Positions 2,245 through 37,416 of a DNA stretch of 38,618 bases are shown here, piece by piece (within the stretch, counting starts at the first letter, position 1; the number at the start of each line of letters is the position of its first letter). Position numbers and translations under genes: made by a program. Origin of the DNA: a virus; the UHGV virus genome UHGV-0392077. One strand, given 5' to 3'. The notes under the pieces are model-generated. The model had not been told where the DNA came from. It saw only the letters and a list, made by a program, of their open reading frames with translations, and ran no database searches.

Positions 2245-2439
2245 TTAATTATTCTGCTGATTTTCTTCCATCTCGGCTTCTGCTGCCAGTGATTCAATTT
2301 TGTCTGCGAATATTGCTGACAGCGTTGCAAATTCAGCATCAGTGACAGCGGGAATCGGAACAAACCTGATCCCGCTGTGTGCAAGCATGTTTGCAGTTTC
2401 AAGGCATTTCCTTAAATCTGCTGGTGATGCCCTGTTCAT
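2245..2439 (-). CDS. hypothetical small protein (64 aa)
   Basis: ATG at 2439 overlaps the stop of the upstream methyltransferase gene (ATGA overlap), suggesting translational coupling; convergent with int with a 3-nt gap. No recognisable motif. Confidence 0.4.
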   Translation of the reverse strand: MNRASPADLRKCLETANMLAHSGIRFVPIPAVTDAEFATLSAIFADKIESLAAEAEMEENQQNN

Positions 2440-3086
2440 GCTGCACGCTCCCGCCCCTGGTTGTCTGTTGGTGACAGCGGAGCATTGCTGAATGCATTTG
2501 TTAATCCGCCAATATCCAACGCGTATCCGGGGTGTAGTTGCACTGCCGGGTCTTCGCACTGATTACCCCAAACATCGAAGCCATGAGACGACTGGCGGGC
2601 GAACAGTTCAATGCGAGAAACATCGCCTAACAATTGCACAAGTTTTTCACGAACGACATCTGGTTTTCTTGAATGCTCAAGCCGCGGTGCCGTAAATGAC
2701 TGAACGATCCCTGCATTAATGCGCGGAGGTAGTTTTCCCTTTACTGCAAACAGGCAATCTTCACTATTGGCGCGAGTCATGTGACCCATACCCATAACCA
2801 GTTTATCTGGTTGTCGACTACCACATTTTATCCACGTGAATCCCTTCATGGTCATCAGACGGAACCCCCAGGCTTCAACAACTTTTAGTGCTTCGAGTGG
2901 TTGTGTTGGCACCCACCACATGGCCAACAGACAGTTTTCATCGGCCAAATCCCACACAGGAAGGCGGCAGATGTCCAGCACACTCATAACCGGATATTTA
3001 AAACCGGCACCGCGATTACCATCTGCGGCTTTGTCCCGGTATACCCAGGGTGGATCTGCATAGATTAGTGTGTATTTCTTAGTCAT
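2436..3086 (-). CDS. MT-A70 family DNA N6-adenine methyltransferase
   Basis: Contains YADPPWVY (the DPPW catalytic motif of MT-A70-type adenine methyltransferases). ATG at 3086 preferred over GTG at 3098. Confidence 0.8.
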   Translation of the reverse strand: MTKKYTLIYADPPWVYRDKAADGNRGAGFKYPVMSVLDICRLPVWDLADENCLLAMWWVPTQPLEALKVVEAWGFRLMTMKGFTWIKCGSRQPDKLVMGMGHMTRANSEDCLFAVKGKLPPRINAGIVQSFTAPRLEHSRKPDVVREKLVQLLGDVSRIELFARQSSHGFDVWGNQCEDPAVQLHPGYALDIGGLTNAFSNAPLSPTDNQGRERAA

Positions 3087-3378
3087 AAACCACCCCACAA
3101 CATCCTATGCCGCTATAGTCGCCACGGCGAAGGCCGTTACCTTTTGTGATACATTGGTCCCTGCGAACCGCGATCCTCGCACGCTCAACATCACCAGAAG
3201 CAACATCCATACACTGAAGCCAAAGGTGAGCGGCAATGCGGAACTGCCCTTTTTTCTCTCTTTCAATCGCGCGTTTTTCGATCTCTATCGCCGCAGGAGT
3301 AACGGCGACAATCTTTGACGGACTGCGCATTGAAACCTTGTTCATGTGATATTTTTCAAGTCGGCTTAACTTTTTCAC
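3079..3378 (-). CDS. hypothetical protein
   Basis: ORF with GTG start at 3378 (SD-like GAGGG upstream) or ATG at 3345; its stop overlaps the methyltransferase start. No recognisable motif. Confidence 0.45.
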   Translation of the reverse strand: MKKLSRLEKYHMNKVSMRSPSKIVAVTPAAIEIEKRAIEREKKGQFRIAAHLWLQCMDVASGDVERARIAVRRDQCITKGNGLRRGDYSGIGCCGVVYD

Positions 3379-3487
3379 TTAATCCAACCCTCTCTGAAAA
3401 TTAATGCCAGCAGATAAAGCCATGCTGAAACAGAGGCCAGGAATAAGTACCATCCTGACCATTTGCTCCAGTGCCTTAGCAGCACAC

Positions 3488-3736
3488 TCATGCAGCGTTG
3501 CTCACAGGACGATATACACGTTGCTGAACAGGAGGCTTTTTACCCTGGAACTCTGCCGGGCTTGCTGCCTGACGTTCATCAAGCCAACGCTCAACTTCAT
3601 CACGGTTCCATGCGCAGCGTTTGTCAGTGATATACCAGCGTTTAGGAAATTCCCCTGCGCGCTCCATGCGGTCGATAGTGCTCCATGACAGTGGCACCAC
3701 CGCCAGGAGTTCCTTCTTACCTAATGCACCTTTCAT
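3488..3736 (-). CDS. AlpA-family excisionase / transcriptional regulator
   Basis: 82 aa; LSWSTIDRMERAGEFPKRWYI...RCAWNRDEVERWL resembles AlpA/Xis-type winged-HTH proteins that partner P4-type integrases. SD GAGG 7 nt upstream of ATG 3736. Confidence 0.7.
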   Translation of the reverse strand: MKGALGKKELLAVVPLSWSTIDRMERAGEFPKRWYITDKRCAWNRDEVERWLDERQAASPAEFQGKKPPVQQRVYRPVSNAA

Positions 3737-5991: not shown

Positions 5992-6006
5992 TTACCGTTG
6001 AGGTAA
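5992..6006. promoter_or_regulatory. operator-like palindrome TTACC-gttga-GGTAA
   Basis: Perfect half-sites; between the leftward promoter candidate and the first leftward ORF. Confidence 0.5.
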
Positions 6007-6125: not shown

Positions 6126-6710
6126 TTATTGTTTGCTTTTTTCGTTCTGGTTGATGACAAATTCAATGTAACTTTCGATCTTTGCCTTCTCTGTTTCAGG
6201 TAACAATGCGTAGCGCGAGCGATCATAGTTGATAGTCGCAGGGTCGTGCGGGTGAATCAGTAATTCATAGCCGTGACGCCCGAATGCGGATGCAACATTC
6301 TCCAGGGTGGAAATGGAAACGCTGACTTCATTGTTTAACAGGCGGCTGATTGTCACCTGGGCGACGCCGGATGCGCGGTGAAGTTTTCCCTGTGTTGAAA
6401 GGTCGCGGCTTTCGCTCATCCAGCGTTCCAGGTTGTGAGCCGCCAGCTGACCAATGTCGCTTGGGCCGACAGGCTGAAACCCCTCCTGAGAAAGCGAGCG
6501 ATCGATATCAAGCCAGTTACGGGGTTTATTGGCGGCAGCTTCAATTTTTCGCGCAACCTGGTCGCCGATAACCTTCTTGCCAAGAGCCCAGCGGTTTACC
6601 AGATTTGCCTGAGTTCCAAGTTTTTCTGCCATCCGCGTCTGAACACCATTGAATTCACGGTCGATCAAGTCGTTGAGATTTTGCCTGCGGACGTCCTGGA
6701 TACTTTTCAT
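6126..6710 (-). CDS. phage repressor (CI-like), two HTH-like segments, no S24 peptidase domain
   Basis: 194 aa; HTH-like segments GVQTRMAEKLGTQANLVNRWALGKK and GVAQVTISRLLNNE; no Ser/Lys autoprotease signature. Divergent from the Cro-like gene across an operator cluster. Confidence 0.65.
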   Translation of the reverse strand: MKSIQDVRRQNLNDLIDREFNGVQTRMAEKLGTQANLVNRWALGKKVIGDQVARKIEAAANKPRNWLDIDRSLSQEGFQPVGPSDIGQLAAHNLERWMSESRDLSTQGKLHRASGVAQVTISRLLNNEVSVSISTLENVASAFGRHGYELLIHPHDPATINYDRSRYALLPETEKAKIESYIEFVINQNEKSKQ

Positions 6711-13274: not shown

Positions 13275-13871
13275 ATGATGCCTGCTGAACCTAAAACCTA
13301 TAAACGCAAATCAACGCAATTTAAGCCGCTCACAGCAATGCAGGAGGCTTATTGCCAGTCATACATCAAAACGCCTGAAAACCAGACTCAGGCAGCGATT
13401 AACGCAGGATTCTCCCCAAATACAGCGGCAGTTAAAGCCAGTGTCATGATGCGCGATGAACGCATTCAAAAACGGATTGCCGAGCTGATGGAAGAGCGCA
13501 ACAAACGAATGCGCGTCAGTGCCGATTACGTTCTCATGCGCCTGGTGGAGATCGACCAGATGGACGTGATTGATATCCTCAACGACGATGGGAGCCTTAA
13601 GCCAATCCGCGAGTGGCCGAAAATCTGGCGCACTACGCTTAGTGGCTTTGATCTGTCATCGACCATCATGAACATGAACGAGGATTCGATAGAGACAATC
13701 CTCAAAAAAATTAAATGGCCTGACAAGGTGAAGAACCTCGAACTGATTGGTAAGCACGTCGACGTCAACGCATTCAAAGAACGCCTGGATGTTAATGTGA
13801 ATGTGACAATTGCTGATCGCATAGCGGCAGCCAGGAAGCGACTCAAAGAACGTCAGGATGGTAATCAGTGA
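13275..13871 (+). CDS. terS: terminase small subunit
   Basis: LTAMQEAYCQSYIKTPENQTQAAINAGFSPNTAAVKASVMMRDERIQKRIAELMEER matches the HTH-containing small-terminase pattern (Terminase_2/P27-like, as recalled). Start moved to ATG 13275 because the ORF-track N-terminus translates the terminator and operator. Confidence 0.7.
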   Translation: MMPAEPKTYKRKSTQFKPLTAMQEAYCQSYIKTPENQTQAAINAGFSPNTAAVKASVMMRDERIQKRIAELMEERNKRMRVSADYVLMRLVEIDQMDVIDILNDDGSLKPIREWPKIWRTTLSGFDLSSTIMNMNEDSIETILKKIKWPDKVKNLELIGKHVDVNAFKERLDVNVNVTIADRIAAARKRLKERQDGNQ

Positions 13872-15343
13872 CAGATACAGCGTTATCTCCTGAAGAGCAG
13901 TTGATCGAGGATATTGCAGGGTTCACTCACGATCCGCTTGGCTATGCCCTCTATGCGTTCCCGTGGGGGGAAGAGGGGACTGAACTGGCACATGCCACCG
14001 GCCCACGTCAGTGGCAGGCTGATGCGTTCCGAGAGATACGTGATCACCTGCAGAATCCAGAGACGCGCTATCAGCCGCTTATGCTGGCACGCGCTTCTGG
14101 TCACGGTATTGGTAAATCCGCATTCATCTCAATGCTGATCAACTGGGGCATGTCCACTTGCGAGGATTGTAAGGTCGTGGTGACCGCCAACACCGACAAC
14201 CAGCTACGAACGAAGACCTGGCCGGAAATTATCAAGTGGTCAAACCTTGCTATCACGAAAGACTGGTTTACCTGTACCGCTACCGCGATGTACAGCAATG
14301 ACCCTGGGCACGACAAGCGGTGGCGAGCTGACGCAATCCCCTGGTCTGAGCACAACACTGAGGCATTCGCCGGACTACACAACGAGCGCAAACGCATCAT
14401 CGTGGTATTCGATGAAGCGTCGAATATTGCCGATCTTGTGTGGGAGGTAGCAGAGGGTGCGTTGACGGACGAAGACACCGAAATCATCTGGGTGGCGTTC
14501 GGGAACCCGACGCGTAACACCGGGCGTTTCCGTGAATGTTTCCGCAAGTACAAACACCGCTGGAAGTGTGCGCAGATTGACAGCCGGACGGTGGAAGGCA
14601 CTAACAAACAGCAGTTGCAGAAATGGGTTGATGACTACGGGGAAGACAGCGACTTCGTTAAAATCCGTGTGCGCGGCATATTCCCGGATGCATCTGAATT
14701 GCAGTTTATCCCTACCGGTCTTACTGATGAGGCAATGAAACGGGTGGTAACCGCTGCGCAGGTTGCACATGCTCCGGTGATAATCGGCGTTGACCCGGCA
14801 TACTCCGGTGTTGATGACGCGGTGATATACCTGCGGCAGGGGCTGCACAGTAAGGTGCTGTGGACTGGTAACAAGACCACCGACGATCTGATTATGGCGA
14901 AGCGCATCGCTGACTTTGAAGACCAGTATCAGGCTGACGCGGTATTCATCGACTTCGGTTACGGAACCGGTTTGAAGTCAATCGGTGATGGCTGGGGACG
15001 TACATGGCAACTTGTTCCGTTCGGTGGCGCGTCTACTGACCCGCAGATGCTCAACAAGCGTGGGGAGATGTTCAACTCATGTAAGACATGGCTGAGGCTG
15101 GGCGGCATGCTGGATGACCAGGAAACTGCAGACGACCTGTCGGCGGCAGAGTACAAAGTTCGAGTGGACGGTAAAATCGTTATCGAACCGAAGGAAGATA
15201 TCAAAGAGCGACTTGGGCGTTCACCTGGTAAAGGCGATGCGCTACTGCTGACGTTTGCGTTCCCTGTGTCAAAGCGTCTGCTAATTCCCGGGCAGCAGAA
15301 CCAGCAAGGCAAGGCCATCACAGATTACGATCCCTATGCTTAA
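13868..15343 (+). CDS. terL: terminase large subunit
   Basis: 491 aa; GTG 13868 overlaps the terS stop (GTGA). Walker-A-like ASGHGIGKSA and VVFDEASNI (Walker-B-like); size and position typical. Confidence 0.8.
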   Translation: MTDTALSPEEQLIEDIAGFTHDPLGYALYAFPWGEEGTELAHATGPRQWQADAFREIRDHLQNPETRYQPLMLARASGHGIGKSAFISMLINWGMSTCEDCKVVVTANTDNQLRTKTWPEIIKWSNLAITKDWFTCTATAMYSNDPGHDKRWRADAIPWSEHNTEAFAGLHNERKRIIVVFDEASNIADLVWEVAEGALTDEDTEIIWVAFGNPTRNTGRFRECFRKYKHRWKCAQIDSRTVEGTNKQQLQKWVDDYGEDSDFVKIRVRGIFPDASELQFIPTGLTDEAMKRVVTAAQVAHAPVIIGVDPAYSGVDDAVIYLRQGLHSKVLWTGNKTTDDLIMAKRIADFEDQYQADAVFIDFGYGTGLKSIGDGWGRTWQLVPFGGASTDPQMLNKRGEMFNSCKTWLRLGGMLDDQETADDLSAAEYKVRVDGKIVIEPKEDIKERLGRSPGKGDALLLTFAFPVSKRLLIPGQQNQQGKAITDYDPYA

Positions 15344-16006: not shown

Positions 16007-16083
16007 TGGCGTGGCATGCAGGATTCGAACCTGCGACCAACCGCTTAGAAGGCGGTTGCTCTGTCCAGCTGAGCTAATGCCAC
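16007..16083 (-). tRNA. tRNA-Arg(UCU): tRNA-Arg (anticodon UCU), argU-like, CCA encoded
   Basis: Minus strand folds by hand into a cloverleaf: acceptor GTGGCAT/ATGCCAC, D-arm GCTC...GAGC, anticodon stem ACCGC/GCGGT with loop CTTCTAA (anticodon TCT), T-arm GCAGG-TTCGAAT-CCTGC, discriminator G plus CCA. Resembles E. coli argU as recalled. Confidence 0.8.
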
Positions 16084-16405: not shown

Positions 16406-16420
16406 TTACCTGAAAGGTAA
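16406..16420. promoter_or_regulatory. operator-like palindrome TTACC-tgaaa-GGTAA
   Basis: In the non-coding region upstream of the portal operon; the flanking GGTAATAATTTG is repeated again at about 16478. Confidence 0.5.
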
Positions 16421-33190: not shown

Positions 33191-33739
33191 TTACTTTTCT
33201 TCAGGTTTGTTGTCTTCAGATTTCTTCTTGATGCTTGGTTTTTGTCTAAGAACGAAAATACCAGCCACTGCAACAACTGTACCGATCACTGTGCCTGCTA
33301 GAACTTCATGACCTGTTAAACCTAATAATGTTGCACAAGCTACTGTAAAAATAGTTGCACTCAGGCCAAACCACTGCCCACGTTTATCTCTATTAATAGC
33401 CCCGTCAAGTGCCTTTTCCTCCATTTTCTGGCGGTGAGCAAACTCCTTCTCCGTCAGCTGGAAGATGCGTTCGGGGGCATCAGGTAAAATATCCTGATAC
33501 CCGCGAAGCAGATAAGGGGGAGGAAGCGGACCCTGAAACGCATGGTGAGCGACAACTATCTCCTGAATTTCAGGGCGATCAAGAACTCTTGTGAAGGCAT
33601 CTGGGTGTTGAATGATCTCGTTACTTAGCCCTTCCTCAACTTCCTCGAACTCAGTTTCTTCGTTATCACTTGGTTGCCCAATAGATTTTTGCATATTTGT
33701 CGAAGGACATTCCTTTAGCTTCTGGTTTTCCTCTTGCAT
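33191..33739 (-). CDS. hypothetical membrane protein (possible superinfection-exclusion protein)
   Basis: Acidic N-terminal region and two C-terminal TM helices (WFGLSATIFTVACATLLGL; VLAGTVIGTVVAVAGIFVL). The true start may be the internal ATG at 33694. Confidence 0.5.
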   Translation of the reverse strand: MQEENQKLKECPSTNMQKSIGQPSDNEETEFEEVEEGLSNEIIQHPDAFTRVLDRPEIQEIVVAHHAFQGPLPPPYLLRGYQDILPDAPERIFQLTEKEFAHRQKMEEKALDGAINRDKRGQWFGLSATIFTVACATLLGLTGHEVLAGTVIGTVVAVAGIFVLRQKPSIKKKSEDNKPEEK

Positions 33740-33992
33740 TTGAGTTTTTCCCTGTCACTATTGCCCATTTTCCGCCAGCAGGCGCTGCAATTTTTTTTCC
33801 GTTCTTTACTATATATTCAGCATAAACACGATTTTCTGACCGTCTGAGATCGTCTCCGACCATATTCATGTCTCTTGATATAACTTTGACGACAGAGTCT
33901 CGGTTTAAAGCCTTGGCATAGTTGGAGCCAGGAACGATACCCAAAGGGGTGCCAGACTCTATAGCCAGCTCCTTGACATATCTTCTGCTCAT
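33666..33992 (-). CDS. hypothetical protein (108 aa)
   Basis: ATG 33992 with GAGGT 5 nt upstream; overlaps the start of the downstream membrane-protein gene; operator site lies just upstream. Confidence 0.4.
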   Translation of the reverse strand: MSRRYVKELAIESGTPLGIVPGSNYAKALNRDSVVKVISRDMNMVGDDLRRSENRVYAEYIVKNGKKIAAPAGGKWAIVTGKNSNARGKPEAKGMSFDKYAKIYWATK

Positions 33993-34013
33993 ATGAACCT
34001 CAACCAATCGACT

Positions 34014-34028
34014 TTACCAATCGGGTAA
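34014..34028. promoter_or_regulatory. operator-like palindrome TTACC-aatcg-GGTAA
   Basis: Perfect half-sites between ant and the 108-aa gene. Confidence 0.5.
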
Positions 34029-34113
34029 TTTTAAACATGAGTATAATGCTTTTAACTGCAACGAGTGTAAACAATTATTGATAATTGTAGGCACATCCAT
34101 GTGCCGCCGCCCG

Positions 34114-34824
34114 TCAGAAGAACCCAGCCTTGTCGTTGATGTACTCCGCGTGTGTCTGGATATCACGCAGGCATTTGCTCACACCGACGATGTAGCAGAA
34201 CATGGTGGTCAGCTCCGCCGCCGCGCCCGATACGTCGTGCCCGTCTTCCTGTAACTGGTTCAGCAGATTCATCAGCAGTGAGTGCTCCGTCAGGCCGAGA
34301 ACACCAGACGGCGAATGAATCAGGCTACGGTAGCCGGGCTTCAGTGGGGCACTGTAGGTTTTGTTCTCTATCTTCATTGCCTGCATTACTGCTGACGCCG
34401 TGGCGTTGGCTACCTGGTCGGCAACCATCTTTATGCGTTCTTCCTGCGGTAGCGAGTTTTTAATGTAACTTCCGGTGCGGCGGATCTGAGGAAGAACCTC
34501 ACCTGTAACCCATTTGCGAAAGCGGTAGGGGATAGTGCCTGGTGTCACTGCGTCGCGGCAGCGGAGGATCAGTGTGTAGAGGCCTGACTCGGAGATGATG
34601 TTGATCTCTTTTACTCGGCTATCAAAAATTGCACGATGTTCATGCCCTATGTTGAACATAGACCTTTCATCATCATCCAGTTTTTCAAGTGCTTGGGTGA
34701 CGTTTTGGATACGCAGCGCACTACAAACGTCTTGGGCTACAAACCATGGTTGGCCATCGATAATGATGGAACGGATAGGGTTAACAGATTCAAATTTGAA
34801 GATGGCAGTTTGAGCATTAGCCAT
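34114..34824 (-). CDS. ant: antirepressor, Bro-N domain (Ant-like)
   Basis: N-terminus FKFESVNPIRSIIIDGQPWFVAQDVCSALRIQNVTQALEKLDDDE matches the Bro-N / P22 Ant-type domain. ATG 34824 with GGAG upstream. The C-terminal domain is paralogous to gene 35140..35397. Confidence 0.7.
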   Translation of the reverse strand: MANAQTAIFKFESVNPIRSIIIDGQPWFVAQDVCSALRIQNVTQALEKLDDDERSMFNIGHEHRAIFDSRVKEINIISESGLYTLILRCRDAVTPGTIPYRFRKWVTGEVLPQIRRTGSYIKNSLPQEERIKMVADQVANATASAVMQAMKIENKTYSAPLKPGYRSLIHSPSGVLGLTEHSLLMNLLNQLQEDGHDVSGAAAELTTMFCYIVGVSKCLRDIQTHAEYINDKAGFF

Positions 34825-34842
34825 GGTGGTTATCTCCACTTA

Positions 34843-34856
34843 GTGATTTTAATCAC
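34843..34856. promoter_or_regulatory. 14-bp palindrome GTGATTTTAATCAC upstream of ant (candidate operator)
   Basis: Perfect inverted repeat GTGATT/AATCAC, 19 bp upstream of the ant start codon; distinct from the TTACC-N5-GGTAA family. Confidence 0.4.
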
Positions 34857-34979
34857 CACCGCAACGCCAATTACTGGTGGTGAACTGGACAAGGTTGGCG
34901 TACCGGCCTAAGTGGTACCGGCGTCCTTTCGGACCCCTGCCCAGCCCACCATAATTCGGATATGGCTGTGCTTAACGCA

Positions 34980-35003
34980 TAAAAAAACCACGTCTGGCGT
35001 GGT
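34980..35003 (-). terminator. rho-independent terminator after the small LexA-boxed gene
   Basis: Minus strand ACCACG-CCAGA-CGTGGT followed by TTTTTTT. Confidence 0.6.
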
Positions 35004-35093
35004 ATGCGCCACTTAGTAACTCGGGACGCCAATCCCGGCACTGGATTTTGCCAGTACCCGATTACTATGGCACAAGAGGAGTGCGATGTAAAT

Positions 35094-35108
35094 TTACCGC
35101 AAAGGTAA
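35094..35108. promoter_or_regulatory. operator-like palindrome TTACC-gcaaa-GGTAA
   Basis: Between the stop of the small gene and its terminator. Confidence 0.5.
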
Positions 35109-35139
35109 ATATAAGCACTCCACTTGGTAATTGCAAACC

Positions 35140-35397
35140 TTATCTGGTTTGTTTTCGTAATTGTTCGGCACAATAGTCGAGATGTGTTTGCAGATCCTGC
35201 ATAGACATCTGTGAGCTGGTGACGTAGTTAATCAGTGCAGTCAGTTCGGCAAGTGGGCCATCGACATTAAATCCATCCTTATCGAGATCCCGGAGTAATT
35301 TCATCAAGTGCGATCCCTCCACTAGTGATCTGACGCCTCCCGGCGTGTGAATCCTTTCGGTAAATCCGTCTTCCAGTGGATAGTGATACTGCTGCAT
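35140..35397 (-). CDS. small protein (85 aa) paralogous to the Ant C-terminal domain; candidate SOS-inducible antirepressor
   Basis: Aligns by eye with the Ant C-terminus (IHTPGGVRSLVEGSHLMKLLRDLDKDGFNVDGPLAELT...DLQTHLDY versus IHSPSGVLGLTEHSLLMNLLNQLQEDGHDVSGAAAELT...DIQTHAEY). Start set at ATG 35397 because the ORF-track extension to 35520 translates the LexA box. Confidence 0.55.
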   Translation of the reverse strand: MQQYHYPLEDGFTERIHTPGGVRSLVEGSHLMKLLRDLDKDGFNVDGPLAELTALINYVTSSQMSMQDLQTHLDYCAEQLRKQTR

Positions 35398-35416
35398 CTT
35401 ATCTTCTCCATGCAAT

Positions 35417-35436
35417 AACTGTATATTTATACAGTA
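35417..35436. promoter_or_regulatory. LexA (SOS) box
   Basis: AACTGTATATTTATACAGTA is CTGT-N8-ACAG with an AT-rich core, close to the E. coli consensus TACTGTATATATATACAGTA; 22 nt upstream of the small gene's ATG. Confidence 0.7.
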
Positions 35437-35473
35437 GCAAATAATTTGTTTGCTATCCAGCACGTTTTGCAAA

Positions 35474-35488
35474 TTACCCGAAAGGTAA
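35474..35488. promoter_or_regulatory. operator-like palindrome ATTACC-cgaaa-GGTAAT
   Basis: Perfect 17-bp palindrome between the LexA-boxed promoter and the tailspike gene. Confidence 0.5.
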
Positions 35489-35592
35489 TATCTATTCGTA
35501 TTTACAGTCTTTCTATCCATATGTGGTTTTTCAGGTAATAGAATAACCAGATATGCGGCGCAACGGGTGCTGCGACTATCTGGAGATTTAAC

Positions 35593-37416
35593 ATGACGGT
35601 CTCAACCGAAGTTGACCACAACGAATACACAGGTAACGGTGTTACGACATCATTTCCGTATACCTTCCGCATTTTCAAAAAATCCGACTTAGTTGTTCAG
35701 GTGTCTGACCTTAACGGTAACGTAACAGTACTAGTACTGGATACCGGTTATACGGTAACCGGTGCGGGCACTTATAGTGGTGGTGCTGTGGTTCTTCCGT
35801 CGCCTCTTGCGGCTGGTTGGCGTATTACGATAGAGCGCGTGCTTAATGTTGTGCAGAAGACTGACCTTCGCAATCAAGGAAAATTTTTTCCAGAAGTTCA
35901 TGAGGATGCCTTTGACTACCTGACAATGTTGATTCAGAAGTGTTTTGGTTGGTTCCGACGTTCACTGATGAAGCCTTCGTTGCTTGCAAAATATTACGAT
36001 GCAAAACAAAACAGAATTTCTAATCTTGCAGATCCTGGCGTACCACAGGACGCTGTAAATAACCGGTCTATGCGCAACTATGTTGATGCTGCTATAGCTG
36101 GTGTTGTTGGTGGTTATGGATGGTTTATTCAGTATGGTTCTGGGGCTATTTACCGTACATTTCAGGACAAGATGCGTGAAGTTTTTAGTGTAAAAGATTT
36201 TGGCGCTAAGGGGGACGGAGTTACTGATGATACAGCTGCGATTCATACGGCATGTAGTGCATTAAACGATTATTTTTTGGCTGATGGTGTTCGTAGAACA
36301 TTAGTTTTTCCTGACGGTACATATCGCACATCAAGTACTGTTGTGTCTCATCCCAACATGTGCATCCATTGTATTGGTAATGTTATATTTCAGAATGCCA
36401 ATAAGGACGATAAATCATTTGCTGCCTTTGAGATACAAGGAGGTGCACATAAAACAGTATTGGGTGTGATAGATGCATATGGTGTCGGATTCATAGTTAG
36501 AGGTAATACTCATAATATAGAGTTTCAGACCATTAGTAATTGTATTGATGGGTTTGTTATTCGTGCAGATATTAATTGGACTCTTGGCACTAAAAATAGC
36601 TTAGATAATAAAATTACTGGTATCCAAATTGGTAAGTGCACCAACGGAATTGTATTTGAACAGAATGGAGATTCACTTATTCAGCAAGGTAATGAAGTGC
36701 GTGTTAACTTTGTGTCTGAAACAAATAATACTGTTCTGTTTAGAAACTACGATGGGTTTTCTCATACAAAACAATCTAACTGGGATTCTAATTTTATAGA
36801 GCTTATTGCATCAGACCCAACAAAATTACCTGGCTCCTCTATGGTAATGAATACTACAAATTATGGTGTGCCAAACCTTACATTTAATATCACAAACTGG
36901 TGCGGTGGTTGGATTGCAAACGCTGGAACCATATGTCTTATTAGGGGGGCATTTACAACATGTAGATTCATGTTTAACTTGGCTGCAGATGTTGGGGTTA
37001 ATGAGGTTGTTGATTCACGTGGAAAATCATCTTTTGGATCTTGTAAGGTAAGTCTTTGCAGGCAAGGAAACCTCGGAAGCGGCTCTTCTTTTTACACTGC
37101 TGTTACTCCAGGTGATATTTTTAATAATGGAATTGCAGTTAAAAATGATAAATTTAGGATTCGTGTAACCATTCCTGATTTAGCTGCAGGTCAAGTATAT
37201 GGCTCATCTTTCTGGCATGTTCTTGTACAACAATCAGGAACATCAAGGGTGCGACTCGAACAAGTAGCTGGTGCCGTACATTCCAGAAATGGAATTCTTA
37301 TCGAACTCACAGATGCTGGAACAGAATTAGTTGGGATGGTGCGCATATGGGTTAAAAATACAACCCAAGACACTATATCTGCAAGAAATATTGATTTTAT
37401 TGTTTCAGTATCTTAA
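35593..37416 (+). CDS. tailspike / receptor-binding protein with pectate-lyase-like beta-helix (putative depolymerase)
   Basis: GGAG 7 nt upstream of ATG. N-terminus EYTGNGVTTSFPYTF looks like a conserved particle-binding domain; middle carries FSVKDFGAKGDGVTDDTAAIHTA, the hallmark of the pectate-lyase-type right-handed beta-helix; the distal half is AT-rich. Confidence 0.75.
   Translation: MTVSTEVDHNEYTGNGVTTSFPYTFRIFKKSDLVVQVSDLNGNVTVLVLDTGYTVTGAGTYSGGAVVLPSPLAAGWRITIERVLNVVQKTDLRNQGKFFPEVHEDAFDYLTMLIQKCFGWFRRSLMKPSLLAKYYDAKQNRISNLADPGVPQDAVNNRSMRNYVDAAIAGVVGGYGWFIQYGSGAIYRTFQDKMREVFSVKDFGAKGDGVTDDTAAIHTACSALNDYFLADGVRRTLVFPDGTYRTSSTVVSHPNMCIHCIGNVIFQNANKDDKSFAAFEIQGGAHKTVLGVIDAYGVGFIVRGNTHNIEFQTISNCIDGFVIRADINWTLGTKNSLDNKITGIQIGKCTNGIVFEQNGDSLIQQGNEVRVNFVSETNNTVLFRNYDGFSHTKQSNWDSNFIELIASDPTKLPGSSMVMNTTNYGVPNLTFNITNWCGGWIANAGTICLIRGAFTTCRFMFNLAADVGVNEVVDSRGKSSFGSCKVSLCRQGNLGSGSSFYTAVTPGDIFNNGIAVKNDKFRIRVTIPDLAAGQVYGSSFWHVLVQQSGTSRVRLEQVAGAVHSRNGILIELTDAGTELVGMVRIWVKNTTQDTISARNIDFIVSVS

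What the first reader, a model, noticed from the sequence alone, without database searches (positions are those of the whole stretch)
35140..35436. Near-consensus LexA box driving a small paralogue of the Ant C-terminal domain: SOS-triggered antirepressor
AACTGTATATTTATACAGTA at 35417..35436 is an almost perfect SOS box (CTGT-N8-ACAG), 22 nt upstream of the ATG of an 85-aa gene. That protein aligns by eye with the C-terminal domain of the adjacent Bro-N Ant protein (shared P.GV..L.E.S.LM.LL..L..DG..V.G..AELT...Y......D.QTH..Y). This is the arrangement seen in Gifsy-type and 186/N15-type phages, where host LexA represses a small antirepressor and so couples induction to DNA damage. Here the antirepressor appears to be a stand-alone copy of a domain that also exists fused to a Bro-N module, which suggests the shared domain is the repressor-binding unit.
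Basis: partly seen in the sequence, partly recalled or inferred. Interest (0 to 1): 0.8.

Follow-up and report, generated by a model that had tools for sequence, protein, structure and literature searches.

The report
LexA-controlled small phage antirepressor Ant
This is the E. coli-prophage copy of an already characterised switch in which the host DNA-damage repressor LexA keeps a small phage protein (Ant) silent until damage occurs and Ant then disables the prophage repressor. The modestly new point is that a neighbouring, antisense-RNA-controlled antirepressor ends in a copy of the same domain.

Summary
A near-consensus LexA box (35417-35436) is the only such site in the window. It lies 19 nt upstream of an 85-aa gene (35140-35397, minus strand). 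That protein is homologous to the C-terminal domain of the adjacent Bro-N protein (42% identity, E=2e-15).

The window is an epsilon15-like (Uetakevirus) E. coli prophage. The 85-aa protein is 86-88% identical to Ant of Salmonella phage SPC32H (PDB 5D50 chain E, E=4e-47), and the 6126-6710 protein is the orthologue of its partner Rep (5D50 chain A, E=3.5e-42). The box aligns base for base with the SPC32H box, the site that differs by one base in the SPC32N variant.

The box does not place the gene in the Gifsy, 186 or N15 families. No sequence relatives turn up outside Uetakevirus-type phages.

New context:
- The Bro-N protein lies behind an isrK/C4 antisense-RNA leader of the P1 immI type, and the C4 target overlaps its ribosome-binding site.
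- Predicted Rep operators (TTACC-N5-GGTAA) flank both antirepressor units.
- In 50,697 phage records, the fused copy of the Ant domain occurs only in phages that also carry the small Ant.

Interest is low to moderate.

The parts
35417..35436 (.). LexA (SOS) box; reads TACTGTATAAATATACAGTT in the sense of ant
   Evidence: Only site within 3 mismatches of the consensus. It is conserved in register in 13 of 13 related loci: 10 have a perfect CTGT-N8-ACAG core and 3 Klebsiella phages have ATGT-N8-ACAG. The homologous SPC32H box differs by one base in SPC32N.
35140..35397 (-). ant: 85-aa small antirepressor, orthologue of SPC32H Ant
   Evidence: phmmer against PDB 5D50_E gives E=4.1e-47. It is 86% identical to SPC32H Ant and 82% to epsilon15 gp19. 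It matches phrog_450 at 9e-48.
35403..35409 (-). Shine-Dalgarno GGAGAAG of ant, 5 nt before the ATG
   Evidence: Read from the sequence. Invariant in the 5-phage alignment.
35431..35459 (-). Inferred ant promoter: -35 TGGATA (35454-35459), 17-nt spacer, -10 TACTGT (35431-35436) overlapping the first half of the LexA box
   Evidence: Inference only. The hexamers and the 17-nt spacing are conserved in the E. coli, Salmonella and Klebsiella versions. The consensus scan did not report it.
35474..35488 (.). TTACC-N5-GGTAA palindrome, a predicted Rep operator between ant and the divergent tailspike gene
   Evidence: The motif occurs 9 times in the window against 0.07 expected. The homologous site in epsilon15 is annotated 'protein_bind: repressor, lysogeny'. 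It is conserved in all related loci.
6126..6710 (-). rep: prophage repressor, orthologue of SPC32H Rep and the target of Ant
   Evidence: PDB 5D50_A, E=3.5e-42, full length, 43% identity. Pfam finds HTH_3 only and no peptidase S24 domain. It is flanked by operators at 5992, 6054 and 6766.
35094..35108 (.). Predicted Rep operator between two promoter-like sites upstream of the isrK/C4 unit
   Evidence: Promoter-like sites are TTGCAA-17-TATATT (35136-35108) and TTTACA-17-CATAGT (35092-35064). The palindrome arms are invariant in 7 phages while the spacer varies.
34981..35057 (-). isrK-like RNA element carrying the first C4 target pair (b1 35026-35032, a1 35009-35016), ending in an intrinsic terminator (stem 34987-35003 plus a T run)
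   Evidence: Rfam RF01394 scores 63.5 bits against a gathering score of 50. The overlapping c4-a1b1 family scores 43.4 bits, just below its gathering score. Terminator; complementarity.
34873..34956 (-). C4-type antisense RNA
   Evidence: Rfam RF01695 scores 66 bits against a gathering score of 45. Its loop CCACUUAG and single-stranded ACGCCAA are complementary to both target pairs. C4 and both targets change together across 9 phages.
34836..34870 (-). Second C4 target pair: b2 (34864-34870) and a2 (34836-34843); a2 overlaps the Shine-Dalgarno GGAG of the Bro-N ant gene
34114..34824 (-). Bro-N antirepressor, 236 aa: Bro-N domain (residues 17-112, nt 34489-34776), a linker, then the Ant-like C-terminal domain (residues 155-231, nt 34132-34362)
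   Evidence: Pfam Bro-N. The C-domain matches 5D50_E at E=2.2e-13 and the small Ant at E=2e-15. Phage ZX5 ORF4 has a near-identical C-domain (98.9%), and its overexpression lowered lysogen counts from 1e9 to 1e6 (PMC9782041).
34014..34028 (.). Predicted Rep operator just downstream of promoter-like sites, ahead of the 113-aa and 182-aa (DUF2335 membrane) genes

Best explanation
The locus is the SOS input of an epsilon15/SPC32H-type lysis-lysogeny switch.

In the lysogen, host LexA sits on the box that overlaps the ant promoter and keeps ant silent. DNA damage activates RecA, LexA cleaves itself, and the 85-aa Ant is made. Ant assembles into an oligomer, binds the tetramerisation region of the non-cleavable repressor Rep (6126-6710), and breaks the DNA-binding Rep tetramer into dimers. 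The TTACC-N5-GGTAA operators scattered over the genome are then freed and the prophage is induced.

What is shown here: the sequence features, the orthology of both proteins to the crystallised complex, and the conservation of the box. What is taken from published work on SPC32H: LexA control and the Ant-Rep mechanism. What is inferred: that both apply to this phage.

The neighbouring Bro-N protein is a second antirepressor whose C-terminal domain is a paralogue of Ant. Its translation is held down by a C4 antisense RNA that pairs with its ribosome-binding site. Its transcription unit carries a predicted Rep operator. I infer that it acts on the same repressor family under a different, P1 immI-like control.
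For: - Ant matches 5D50_E at E=4e-47 and Rep matches 5D50_A at E=3.5e-42.
- Rep has no S24 peptidase domain.
- The box matches the consensus at 18 of 20 positions and is unique in the window.
- The box, the Shine-Dalgarno sequence and the operator align column for column with SPC32H and epsilon15.
- SPC32H and SPC32N differ in this region by one base, ACAG to AAAG in the box. From memory of Kim & Ryu 2013 (paper not held), this change makes Ant constitutive.
- The box is conserved in 13 of 13 loci across four host genera.
- Held papers describe LexA-dependent antirepressors citing Kim & Ryu 2013 (PMC7380047), an Ant tetramer binding two Rep dimers and breaking the Rep tetramer (PMC9638917), and Ant binding Rep's tetramerisation domain (PMC9986798).
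- For the Bro-N copy: Rfam C4 and isrK score above their gathering thresholds; target a2 lies on the Shine-Dalgarno sequence; C4 and both target pairs change together across phages; ZX5 ORF4 overexpression lowers lysogeny; the fused domain is found only in phages that also have the small Ant.
Against: - Nothing was measured in this phage.
- Rep is only 43% identical to SPC32H Rep, so the Ant-Rep contact is inferred.
- The promoter could not be placed by the consensus scan. My -35/-10 assignment is weak (3 of 6 matches in the -10).
- A predicted Rep operator lies about 40 bp upstream of the box. Ant may therefore also be under Rep control, or that operator may serve the divergent tailspike promoter.
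- The two primary papers could not be read.
Confidence: 0.9

Rival explanations
1. The shared domain is mainly an oligomerisation scaffold, not a Rep-recognition unit. On this reading the Bro-N fusion uses it to tetramerise and acts on something else, such as repressors of other prophages or DNA through Bro-N. It would then be an anti-immunity factor used on superinfection, like P1 or P22 Ant, rather than a second route to inactivate its own Rep.
For: - The two paralogues share only 37-42% identity.
- Each group has its own conserved residues, for example NYVTSSQMS against CYIVGVSKCL, and a different last helix.
- SPC32H Ant is itself a tetramer (PMC9638917).
- The control by C4 RNA is that of immI-type anti-immunity genes.
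- phiV10 tolerates a frameshift in the domain.
Against: - In 50,697 phage records the fused domain occurs only in phages that also carry the small Ant, which in every genome checked goes with this Rep type (window, SPC32H, epsilon15).
- The same RNA leader in an Stx phage precedes an antirepressor with an unrelated C-terminal domain, P22_AR_C. This fits a C-domain matched to the resident repressor.
- ZX5 ORF4, with a near-identical C-domain (98.9%), lowers lysogeny of its own phage.
Confidence: 0.25
2. The LexA box is not the operative control. On this reading ant is regulated mainly by Rep through the TTACC-N5-GGTAA site at 35474-35488, or the box regulates the divergent tailspike gene.
For: A conserved Rep-type palindrome lies 38 bp from the box. 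No strong sigma-70 promoter was detected around the box.
Against: - The box is conserved in register, 19 nt from the ATG, in all 13 loci, while the flanking sequence diverges.
- The one base that differs between SPC32H and SPC32N in this region lies in the box.
- The box is 157 nt from the tailspike ATG.
Confidence: 0.04
3. The real gene is the 126-aa ORF starting at 35520, as annotated in phage PAS61 and in many metagenome gene calls. The box and the operator would then lie inside a coding region.
For: The reading frame is open for 41 further codons in the window, ZX5, PAS61, EC.W1-9 and SPC32H.
Against: - The extension is closed by stop codons in epsilon15, Tyrion, BUCT554 and three Klebsiella phages, and it has no ATG in phiV10 or TL-2011b.
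- Its conserved 'residues' coincide with the DNA motifs: operator, -35, box and Shine-Dalgarno sequence.
- The crystallised Ant chain is 86 aa.
- A strong Shine-Dalgarno sequence precedes the internal ATG.
Confidence: 0.02

Closest known systems
Ant-Rep-LexA switch of Salmonella podophage SPC32H (Kim & Ryu 2013, J Virol 87:11775; Kim et al. 2016, PNAS 113:E2480; PDB 5D50 and 5D4Z)
   Same: - Same phage genus (Uetakevirus).
- Ant is 86-88% identical and Rep is orthologous.
- The LexA box, Shine-Dalgarno sequence and Rep-type palindrome are in the same register.
- The gene sits in the same place, between the virion operon and the tailspike gene.
   Different: - The host is E. coli.
- Rep is only 43% identical.
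- This phage has an extra isrK/C4/Bro-N-Ant cassette downstream of ant that SPC32H, epsilon15, PAS61 and BUCT554 lack.
LexA-controlled antirepressors of other phages: 186 Tum, Fels-2 Tum, Gifsy-1/3 GfoA/GfhA (Lemire et al. 2011, PMC3121763), N15 AntC
   Same: The same logic: a non-cleavable repressor, a small antirepressor gene behind a LexA box, and SOS-dependent induction (review PMC7380047).
   Different: No detectable sequence relationship. tblastn of Ant against 50,697 phage records hits only 35 Uetakevirus-type records, and there is no Pfam family match. From memory, Kim & Ryu described Ant as structurally distinct from these proteins.
immI of phages P1 and P7 (c4 antisense RNA - icd - ant)
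   Same: This comparison concerns the adjacent Bro-N Ant. It has a C4 RNA match above the Rfam threshold and two target pairs, one upstream and one downstream of c4. The downstream pair covers the ribosome-binding site of the controlled gene. Specificity varies between phages through matched changes in loop and targets. A prophage-repressor operator sits at the operon promoter.
   Different: There is no icd-like ORF; target a2 sits directly on the Shine-Dalgarno sequence of the ant gene. The antirepressor protein is unrelated to P1 Ant. The operator is of the Rep type, not the C1 type.
Gifsy-1 isrK - orf45 (STnc1160) - anrP locus (Hershko-Shalev et al. 2016, PMC4825925)
   Same: An isrK-family RNA with its own terminator lies upstream of a C4-like RNA and an antirepressor gene reached by read-through. 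In Gifsy-1, IsrK in trans switches on AnrP translation and prophage induction.
   Different: Here the isrK element lies directly behind a LexA-controlled gene. There is no orf45 equivalent in frame. The antirepressor carries the SPC32H-Ant-like domain.
P22 immI (mnt, arc, sar RNA, ant) and the Stx-phage C4-ant cassette
   Same: An antirepressor next to the tailspike gene, held down by an antisense RNA. VT2-Sakai has the same isrK/C4-type leader.
   Different: The proteins are unrelated: ORF6N + P22_AR_C in VT2-Sakai, with BLASTP E=0.4 against the window's Bro-N Ant. The window has no Mnt or Arc.

Membership tests
SPC32H-type small antirepressor Ant (PDB 5D50 chain E; phrog_450) | Sequence homology over the full length to the crystallised Ant | tested here: met
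   phmmer E=4.1e-47 over residues 2-84 of 85; 86% identity; phrog_450 at 9e-48.
SPC32H-type small antirepressor Ant (PDB 5D50 chain E; phrog_450) | LexA box at the ant promoter, homologous to the site that differs in SPC32N | tested here: met
   The alignment puts the window box in the same columns as the SPC32H box. SPC32N differs from SPC32H in this region only by ACAG to AAAG in that box. The window has ACAG.
SPC32H-type small antirepressor Ant (PDB 5D50 chain E; phrog_450) | Cognate Rep-type repressor without a RecA-dependent self-cleavage domain in the same genome | tested here: met
   6126-6710 matches 5D50_A at E=3.5e-42. Pfam finds HTH_3 only and no Peptidase_S24.
SPC32H-type small antirepressor Ant (PDB 5D50 chain E; phrog_450) | Genomic position between the virion structural operon and the divergent tailspike gene | tested here: met
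   Here the optional isrK/C4/Bro-N cassette is inserted on the distal side.
SPC32H-type small antirepressor Ant (PDB 5D50 chain E; phrog_450) | Physical binding of LexA to the box and of Ant to Rep; SOS-dependent induction | not testable with these tools
   Requires EMSA, pulldown and induction assays.
186 Tum / Gifsy GfoA-GfhA / N15 AntC antirepressors | Sequence homology to those proteins | tested here: not met
   tblastn of Ant against 50,697 phage records at E<=1e-3 returns only 35 Uetakevirus-type records. It returns nothing from 186-, Fels-2-, Gifsy- or N15-type phages. No Pfam family match.
186 Tum / Gifsy GfoA-GfhA / N15 AntC antirepressors | LexA box controlling a small antirepressor of a non-cleavable repressor (shared logic) | tested here: met
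   This is a resemblance in how it works, not family membership.
P1/P7-type C4 antisense RNA control (applies to the adjacent Bro-N Ant) | C4 RNA with the family's sequence and structure | tested here: met
   RF01695 scores 66 bits against a gathering score of 45, over model positions 1-87 of 87.
P1/P7-type C4 antisense RNA control (applies to the adjacent Bro-N Ant) | Two exposed C4 segments complementary to one target pair upstream and one downstream of c4, with the downstream pair at the ribosome-binding site | tested here: met
   The 8-nt and 7-nt segments have exact complements at 35009-35016 and 35026-35032, and at 34836-34843 and 34864-34870. Target a2 overlaps the GGAG. All three elements change together across 9 phages.
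P1/P7-type C4 antisense RNA control (applies to the adjacent Bro-N Ant) | An icd-like leader ORF translationally coupled to ant | tested here: not met
   No suitable ORF lies between C4 and the ATG at 34824. The target sits directly on the Shine-Dalgarno sequence of ant.
Ant-like domain as the C-terminal module of multidomain antirepressors | Significant homology of the Bro-N protein's C-terminus to Ant, recurring with other N-terminal modules | tested here: met
   E=2e-15 and E=2.2e-13 against 5D50_E. Among 1.84 billion representative proteins, 45 match. They include fusions to Bro-N (236 aa), AntA (216 aa) and Phage_pRha (319 aa).
Ant-like domain as the C-terminal module of multidomain antirepressors | Same three-dimensional fold as 5D50 chain E | tested here: inconclusive
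   The AlphaFold2 model of the 236-aa protein had mean pLDDT 55.8, and 45-58 over the C-domain. It is too poor for a fold search and was not used.

The most novel reading that the evidence does not exclude
The two antirepressors may form one SOS-triggered cascade.
- No conserved terminator separates ant from the isrK element. The LexA-controlled ant mRNA should therefore carry the IsrK/a1-b1 sequence, which is the decoy target of the C4 antisense RNA, as its 3' UTR.
- SOS induction would then do two things. It would make Ant, which removes Rep. It would also flood the cell with C4-binding RNA, lifting the C4 block on translation of the Bro-N Ant paralogue.
- Loss of Rep would also derepress the operator-flanked isrK promoters.

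This would be a protein-plus-RNA feed-forward that makes induction irreversible. It would also be a case of an mRNA 3' UTR acting as a sponge for a phage immunity RNA.
Probability: 0.15. Interest if true: 0.6.

Novelty: new member of a known kind. Interest (0 to 1): 0.3.

Why it matters
The practical value lies mainly in annotation. The small gene is labelled 'hypothetical protein' in RefSeq E. coli genomes and in most phage records. It is in fact the SOS trigger of a prophage type present in full in about 2% of complete E. coli genomes (101 of 5,426), with partial matches in about 10% (549).

The biology that goes beyond the published SPC32H work is the modular picture:
- The Rep-directed Ant domain exists free under LexA control. 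It also exists fused to Bro-N, AntA or Rha modules.
- In this phage group the fused form sits behind a portable C4/isrK antisense-RNA leader.
- That leader shows matched changes in loop and targets across phages, which points to different specificities.

One prophage would thus have two differently wired inputs to the same repressor family. This gives a tractable system for asking why phages keep both a damage-sensing and an immunity-type antirepressor.

Tried and rejected
- The primary papers (Kim & Ryu 2013; Kim et al. 2016; Kropinski et al. 2007) could not be fetched by DOI or PMC id. Statements about them rest on citing papers, on the deposited sequences and PDB names, and, where marked, on memory.\n- The consensus promoter scan found no promoter at the box. 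My promoter assignment is an inference from conserved spacing.\n- Pfam has no family for Ant. The only hit is a sub-threshold DUF724 match, which I dismissed.\n- The AlphaFold2 model of the Bro-N Ant was of low confidence (pLDDT 55.8), so no fold search was run.\n- A stem (GGAGTGC/GCACTCC) around the 35094 operator looked like a possible ant terminator. It is not conserved across phages, and only the protein-binding palindrome is. I rejected it as a conserved terminator.\n- My first tblastn suggested that phage Tyrion's Bro-N Ant lacks the Ant-like domain. A search with the C-domain itself showed that it has it, at 77% identity. The earlier result was a sensitivity miss.\n- The other two CTGT-N8-ACAG cores (15876, 20418) have G+C-rich spacers and do not approach the 20-nt consensus. 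I treated them as chance.\n- The 126-aa extended ORF was rejected.

Full report
**1. Checking the observation**

The sequence AACTGTATATTTATACAGTA is at 35417-35436. In the sense of the downstream gene it reads TACTGTATAAATATACAGTT, which matches the LexA consensus TACTGTATATATATACAGTA at 18 of 20 positions.

It is the only site in the 38.6-kb window within three mismatches of that consensus, and none was found in 100 shuffles. The bare core CTGT-N8-ACAG is less telling: it occurs three times against 0.59 expected, and the other two copies have G+C-rich spacers.

The small gene is on the minus strand at 35140-35397. Its ATG is at 35397, preceded by GGAGAAG five bases upstream, and 19 nt separate the box from the ATG.

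The by-eye similarity to the neighbouring Bro-N protein (34114-34824, 236 aa; Pfam Bro-N 9.6e-20) is statistically sound. BLASTP finds 31 of 74 residues identical with E=2e-15, aligning Ant residues 2-75 with residues 155-228.

**2. What it is**

The window is an epsilon15-like podophage (genus Uetakevirus). Its nearest relatives are HEMP4, vB_EcoP_ZX5, TL-2011b and phiV10. The region 34000-35600 is 100% identical to prophages in two complete E. coli genomes, and 101 of 5,426 complete genomes hold the full arrangement.

The 85-aa protein matches one entry in the Protein Data Bank: chain E of 5D50, 'Anti-repressor protein', at E=4e-47 over its whole length. That entry is Ant of Salmonella phage SPC32H, whose ant gene occupies the same position next to the tailspike gene. 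The two proteins are 86% identical.

It has an HTH_3 domain and no S24 self-cleavage domain.

The upstream regions of the window, phiV10, ZX5, SPC32H and epsilon15 align without difficulty. The LexA box, the Shine-Dalgarno sequence and a TTACC-N5-GGTAA palindrome are in the same columns in all five.

SPC32H and its variant SPC32N differ in this region by a single base, which turns the box's ACAG into AAAG. As I recall the abstract of Kim & Ryu 2013 (paper not held), this mutation abolishes LexA control and makes Ant constitutive.

The box is present in register in all 13 related loci I collected, from phages of Escherichia, Salmonella, Enterobacter and Klebsiella. Ten have a perfect core. Three Klebsiella phages have ATGT-N8-ACAG.

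The 126-aa upstream-extended ORF that some annotations use is closed in epsilon15, Tyrion, BUCT554 and the three Klebsiella phages, and lacks an ATG in phiV10 and TL-2011b. Its apparent conservation coincides with the DNA motifs, so I regard it as an artefact.

**3. How it most likely works**

By orthology, LexA represses ant in the lysogen. DNA damage removes LexA, and Ant is made. Ant then binds the tetramerisation region of Rep and converts the DNA-binding tetramer into dimers.

Held papers summarise the mechanism in these terms:
- An Ant tetramer binds two Rep dimers and breaks the Rep tetramer (PMC9638917).
- Rep's tetramerisation domain is the one that interacts with Ant (PMC9986798).
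- LexA-dependent antirepressors are a common route of induction in Salmonella prophages (PMC7380047).

The steps shown here are the sequence features and the homologies. LexA binding, Ant-Rep binding and induction are inferred for this phage.

I could not place the promoter with the consensus scan. A -35 TGGATA and a -10 TACTGT with a conserved 17-nt spacer would put the box over the -10 and the transcription start. That assignment is only an inference.

**4.

(a) *Rep operators.* TTACC-N5-GGTAA occurs nine times in the window against 0.07 expected. Three copies flank rep. The epsilon15 GenBank record annotates the same palindrome as 'repressor, lysogeny' binding sites, including the one upstream of its ant orthologue gp19. 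In the window, copies lie at three places in this region:
- 35474-35488, between ant and the divergent tailspike gene.
- 35094-35108, between two promoter-like sites just downstream of ant.
- 34014-34028, just downstream of promoter-like sites and ahead of two further minus-strand genes.

(b) *An antisense-RNA leader.* The 315 bp between ant and the Bro-N gene is not empty. Rfam finds an isrK element (34981-35057, 63.5 bits against a gathering score of 50) ending in an intrinsic terminator. It also finds a C4 antisense RNA (34873-34956, 66 bits against 45).

The C4 hairpin loop CCACUUAG and the single-stranded ACGCCAA have exact complements twice. One pair lies inside the isrK element. The other lies just upstream of the Bro-N gene, where CTAAGTGG overlaps its Shine-Dalgarno GGAG.

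Across nine phages the C4 segments and both target pairs change together. There are three variants of one segment and four of the other. That is strong comparative support for the pairing and implies different specificities.

This is the design of the P1/P7 immI operon and of the Gifsy-1 isrK-anrP locus. In the latter, IsrK in trans turns on translation of the antirepressor (PMC4825925).

The cassette is optional. It is present in the window, ZX5, phiV10, TL-2011b, EC.W1-9, Tyrion and three Klebsiella phages. It is absent from SPC32H, epsilon15, PAS61 and BUCT554.

**5. The shared domain**

A search of 1.84 billion representative proteins with Ant returned only 45 matches. Most are stand-alone proteins of 82-95 aa. 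The set also includes C-terminal fusions to Bro-N (236 aa), AntA (216 aa) and Phage_pRha (319 aa).

The Bro-N fusion is common in Enterobacteriaceae prophages. Eighteen residues are invariant across both groups, and each group also has its own conserved positions.

In the 50,697-record phage collection, tblastn with Ant and tblastn with the Bro-N protein's C-domain hit exactly the same 35 records. The fused copy occurs in 19 of them, always alongside a small Ant.

In Stx2 phage VT2-Sakai the same RNA leader precedes an antirepressor with unrelated domains, ORF6N plus P22_AR_C.

In phage ZX5 the Bro-N protein ORF4 has a C-domain 98.9% identical to the window's. Its overexpression lowered lysogen counts from 1e9 to 1e6. 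The authors mention neither the small Ant, nor LexA, nor SPC32H (PMC9782041).

It does not prove it. The domain could equally serve mainly for oligomerisation, since Ant is itself a tetramer. A structure prediction meant to compare folds was too poor to use (pLDDT 55.8).

**6. Comparison with what is known, and verdict**

The small gene is a member of the SPC32H Ant family by every feature I could test: sequence, box, partner and position. It works like 186 Tum, Gifsy GfoA/GfhA and N15 AntC but is not related to them in sequence. The neighbouring gene is under a P1-type C4 control, without an icd-like leader ORF.

The finding is therefore correct but already explained, and I file it as a new member of a known kind.

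The parts I could not find in the held literature (none of the papers I could read mentions them) are the paralogy between the free and fused Ant domains, their exclusive co-occurrence, and the juxtaposition of a LexA-controlled and a C4-controlled antirepressor in one prophage.

The most novel reading not excluded is that the LexA-driven ant mRNA carries the C4 decoy as its 3' UTR and so unlocks the second antirepressor. I give that about 15%.

Noticed in passing
window 34873-35057 (-), targets at 34836-34870: An isrK element plus a C4 antisense RNA lie between ant and the Bro-N gene. The C4 loop and tail are exactly complementary to two target pairs, one of them on the Bro-N gene's Shine-Dalgarno sequence. 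Loop and targets change together across 9 phages, which implies distinct specificities. The window's a' loop CCACUUAG differs from CCUUUUAG in ZX5 and phiV10.
   Followed up: yes
window 5992, 6054, 6766, 9053, 13243, 16406, 34014, 35094, 35474 (each 15 bp): The TTACC-N5-GGTAA palindrome occurs 9 times against 0.07 expected. The same motif is annotated as repressor-binding sites in the epsilon15 GenBank record. The scattered sites suggest that Rep directly controls several operons. The motif is identical in phages whose Rep proteins are only 43% identical.
   Followed up: partly
L001 (phiV10) 3012-3691: phiV10's Bro-N antirepressor is frameshifted inside the Ant-like C-terminal domain. It is annotated as a 194-aa protein plus a separate 29-aa ORF, so this copy is probably inactive.
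   Followed up: partly
L011 (TL-2011b) 2276-3364; L012 (EC.W1-9) 2751-3666: About 1.1 kb of extra DNA with plus-strand ORFs is inserted between ant and the isrK element in these two phages. TL-2011b also has a third Ant-domain protein, gp42 'anti-repressor Ant', on the other strand.
   Followed up: no
window 35398-35520: The frame upstream of ant stays open for 41 codons, giving a 126-aa ORF that PAS61 and many metagenome gene calls annotate. It is closed in six related phages (epsilon15, Tyrion, BUCT554, three Klebsiella phages) and lacks an ATG in phiV10 and TL-2011b. Its conserved 'residues' are the operator, the -35, the LexA box and the Shine-Dalgarno sequence read as codons.
   Followed up: yes
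window 16007-16083 (-): A phage-borne tRNA-Arg (anticodon TCT) lies downstream of a 491-aa ORF (13868-15343). A Rep-type palindrome is nearby at 16406.
   Followed up: no
window 33191-34007 (-): Two genes lie downstream of the Bro-N gene: a 113-aa protein (phrog_10654, function unknown) and a 182-aa DUF2335 membrane protein that PHROGs labels a moron. They follow promoter-like sites and a Rep-type palindrome at 34014-34028.
   Followed up: partly
L015 (VT2-Sakai) 1036-2002: Stx phages carry the same isrK/C4-type leader (about 71% DNA identity over 200 bp; part of the 267 records in the distant search). There it sits in front of an unrelated antirepressor (ORF6N + P22_AR_C), so the RNA leader behaves as a portable control module.
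   Followed up: partly
window 35140-35397 compared with 6126-6710: Ant is far more conserved between the E. coli and Salmonella phages (86-88% identity) than its partner Rep (43%). The most conserved parts of Rep are residues 1-75 (52%) and the C-terminal 153-190 (47%).
   Followed up: no
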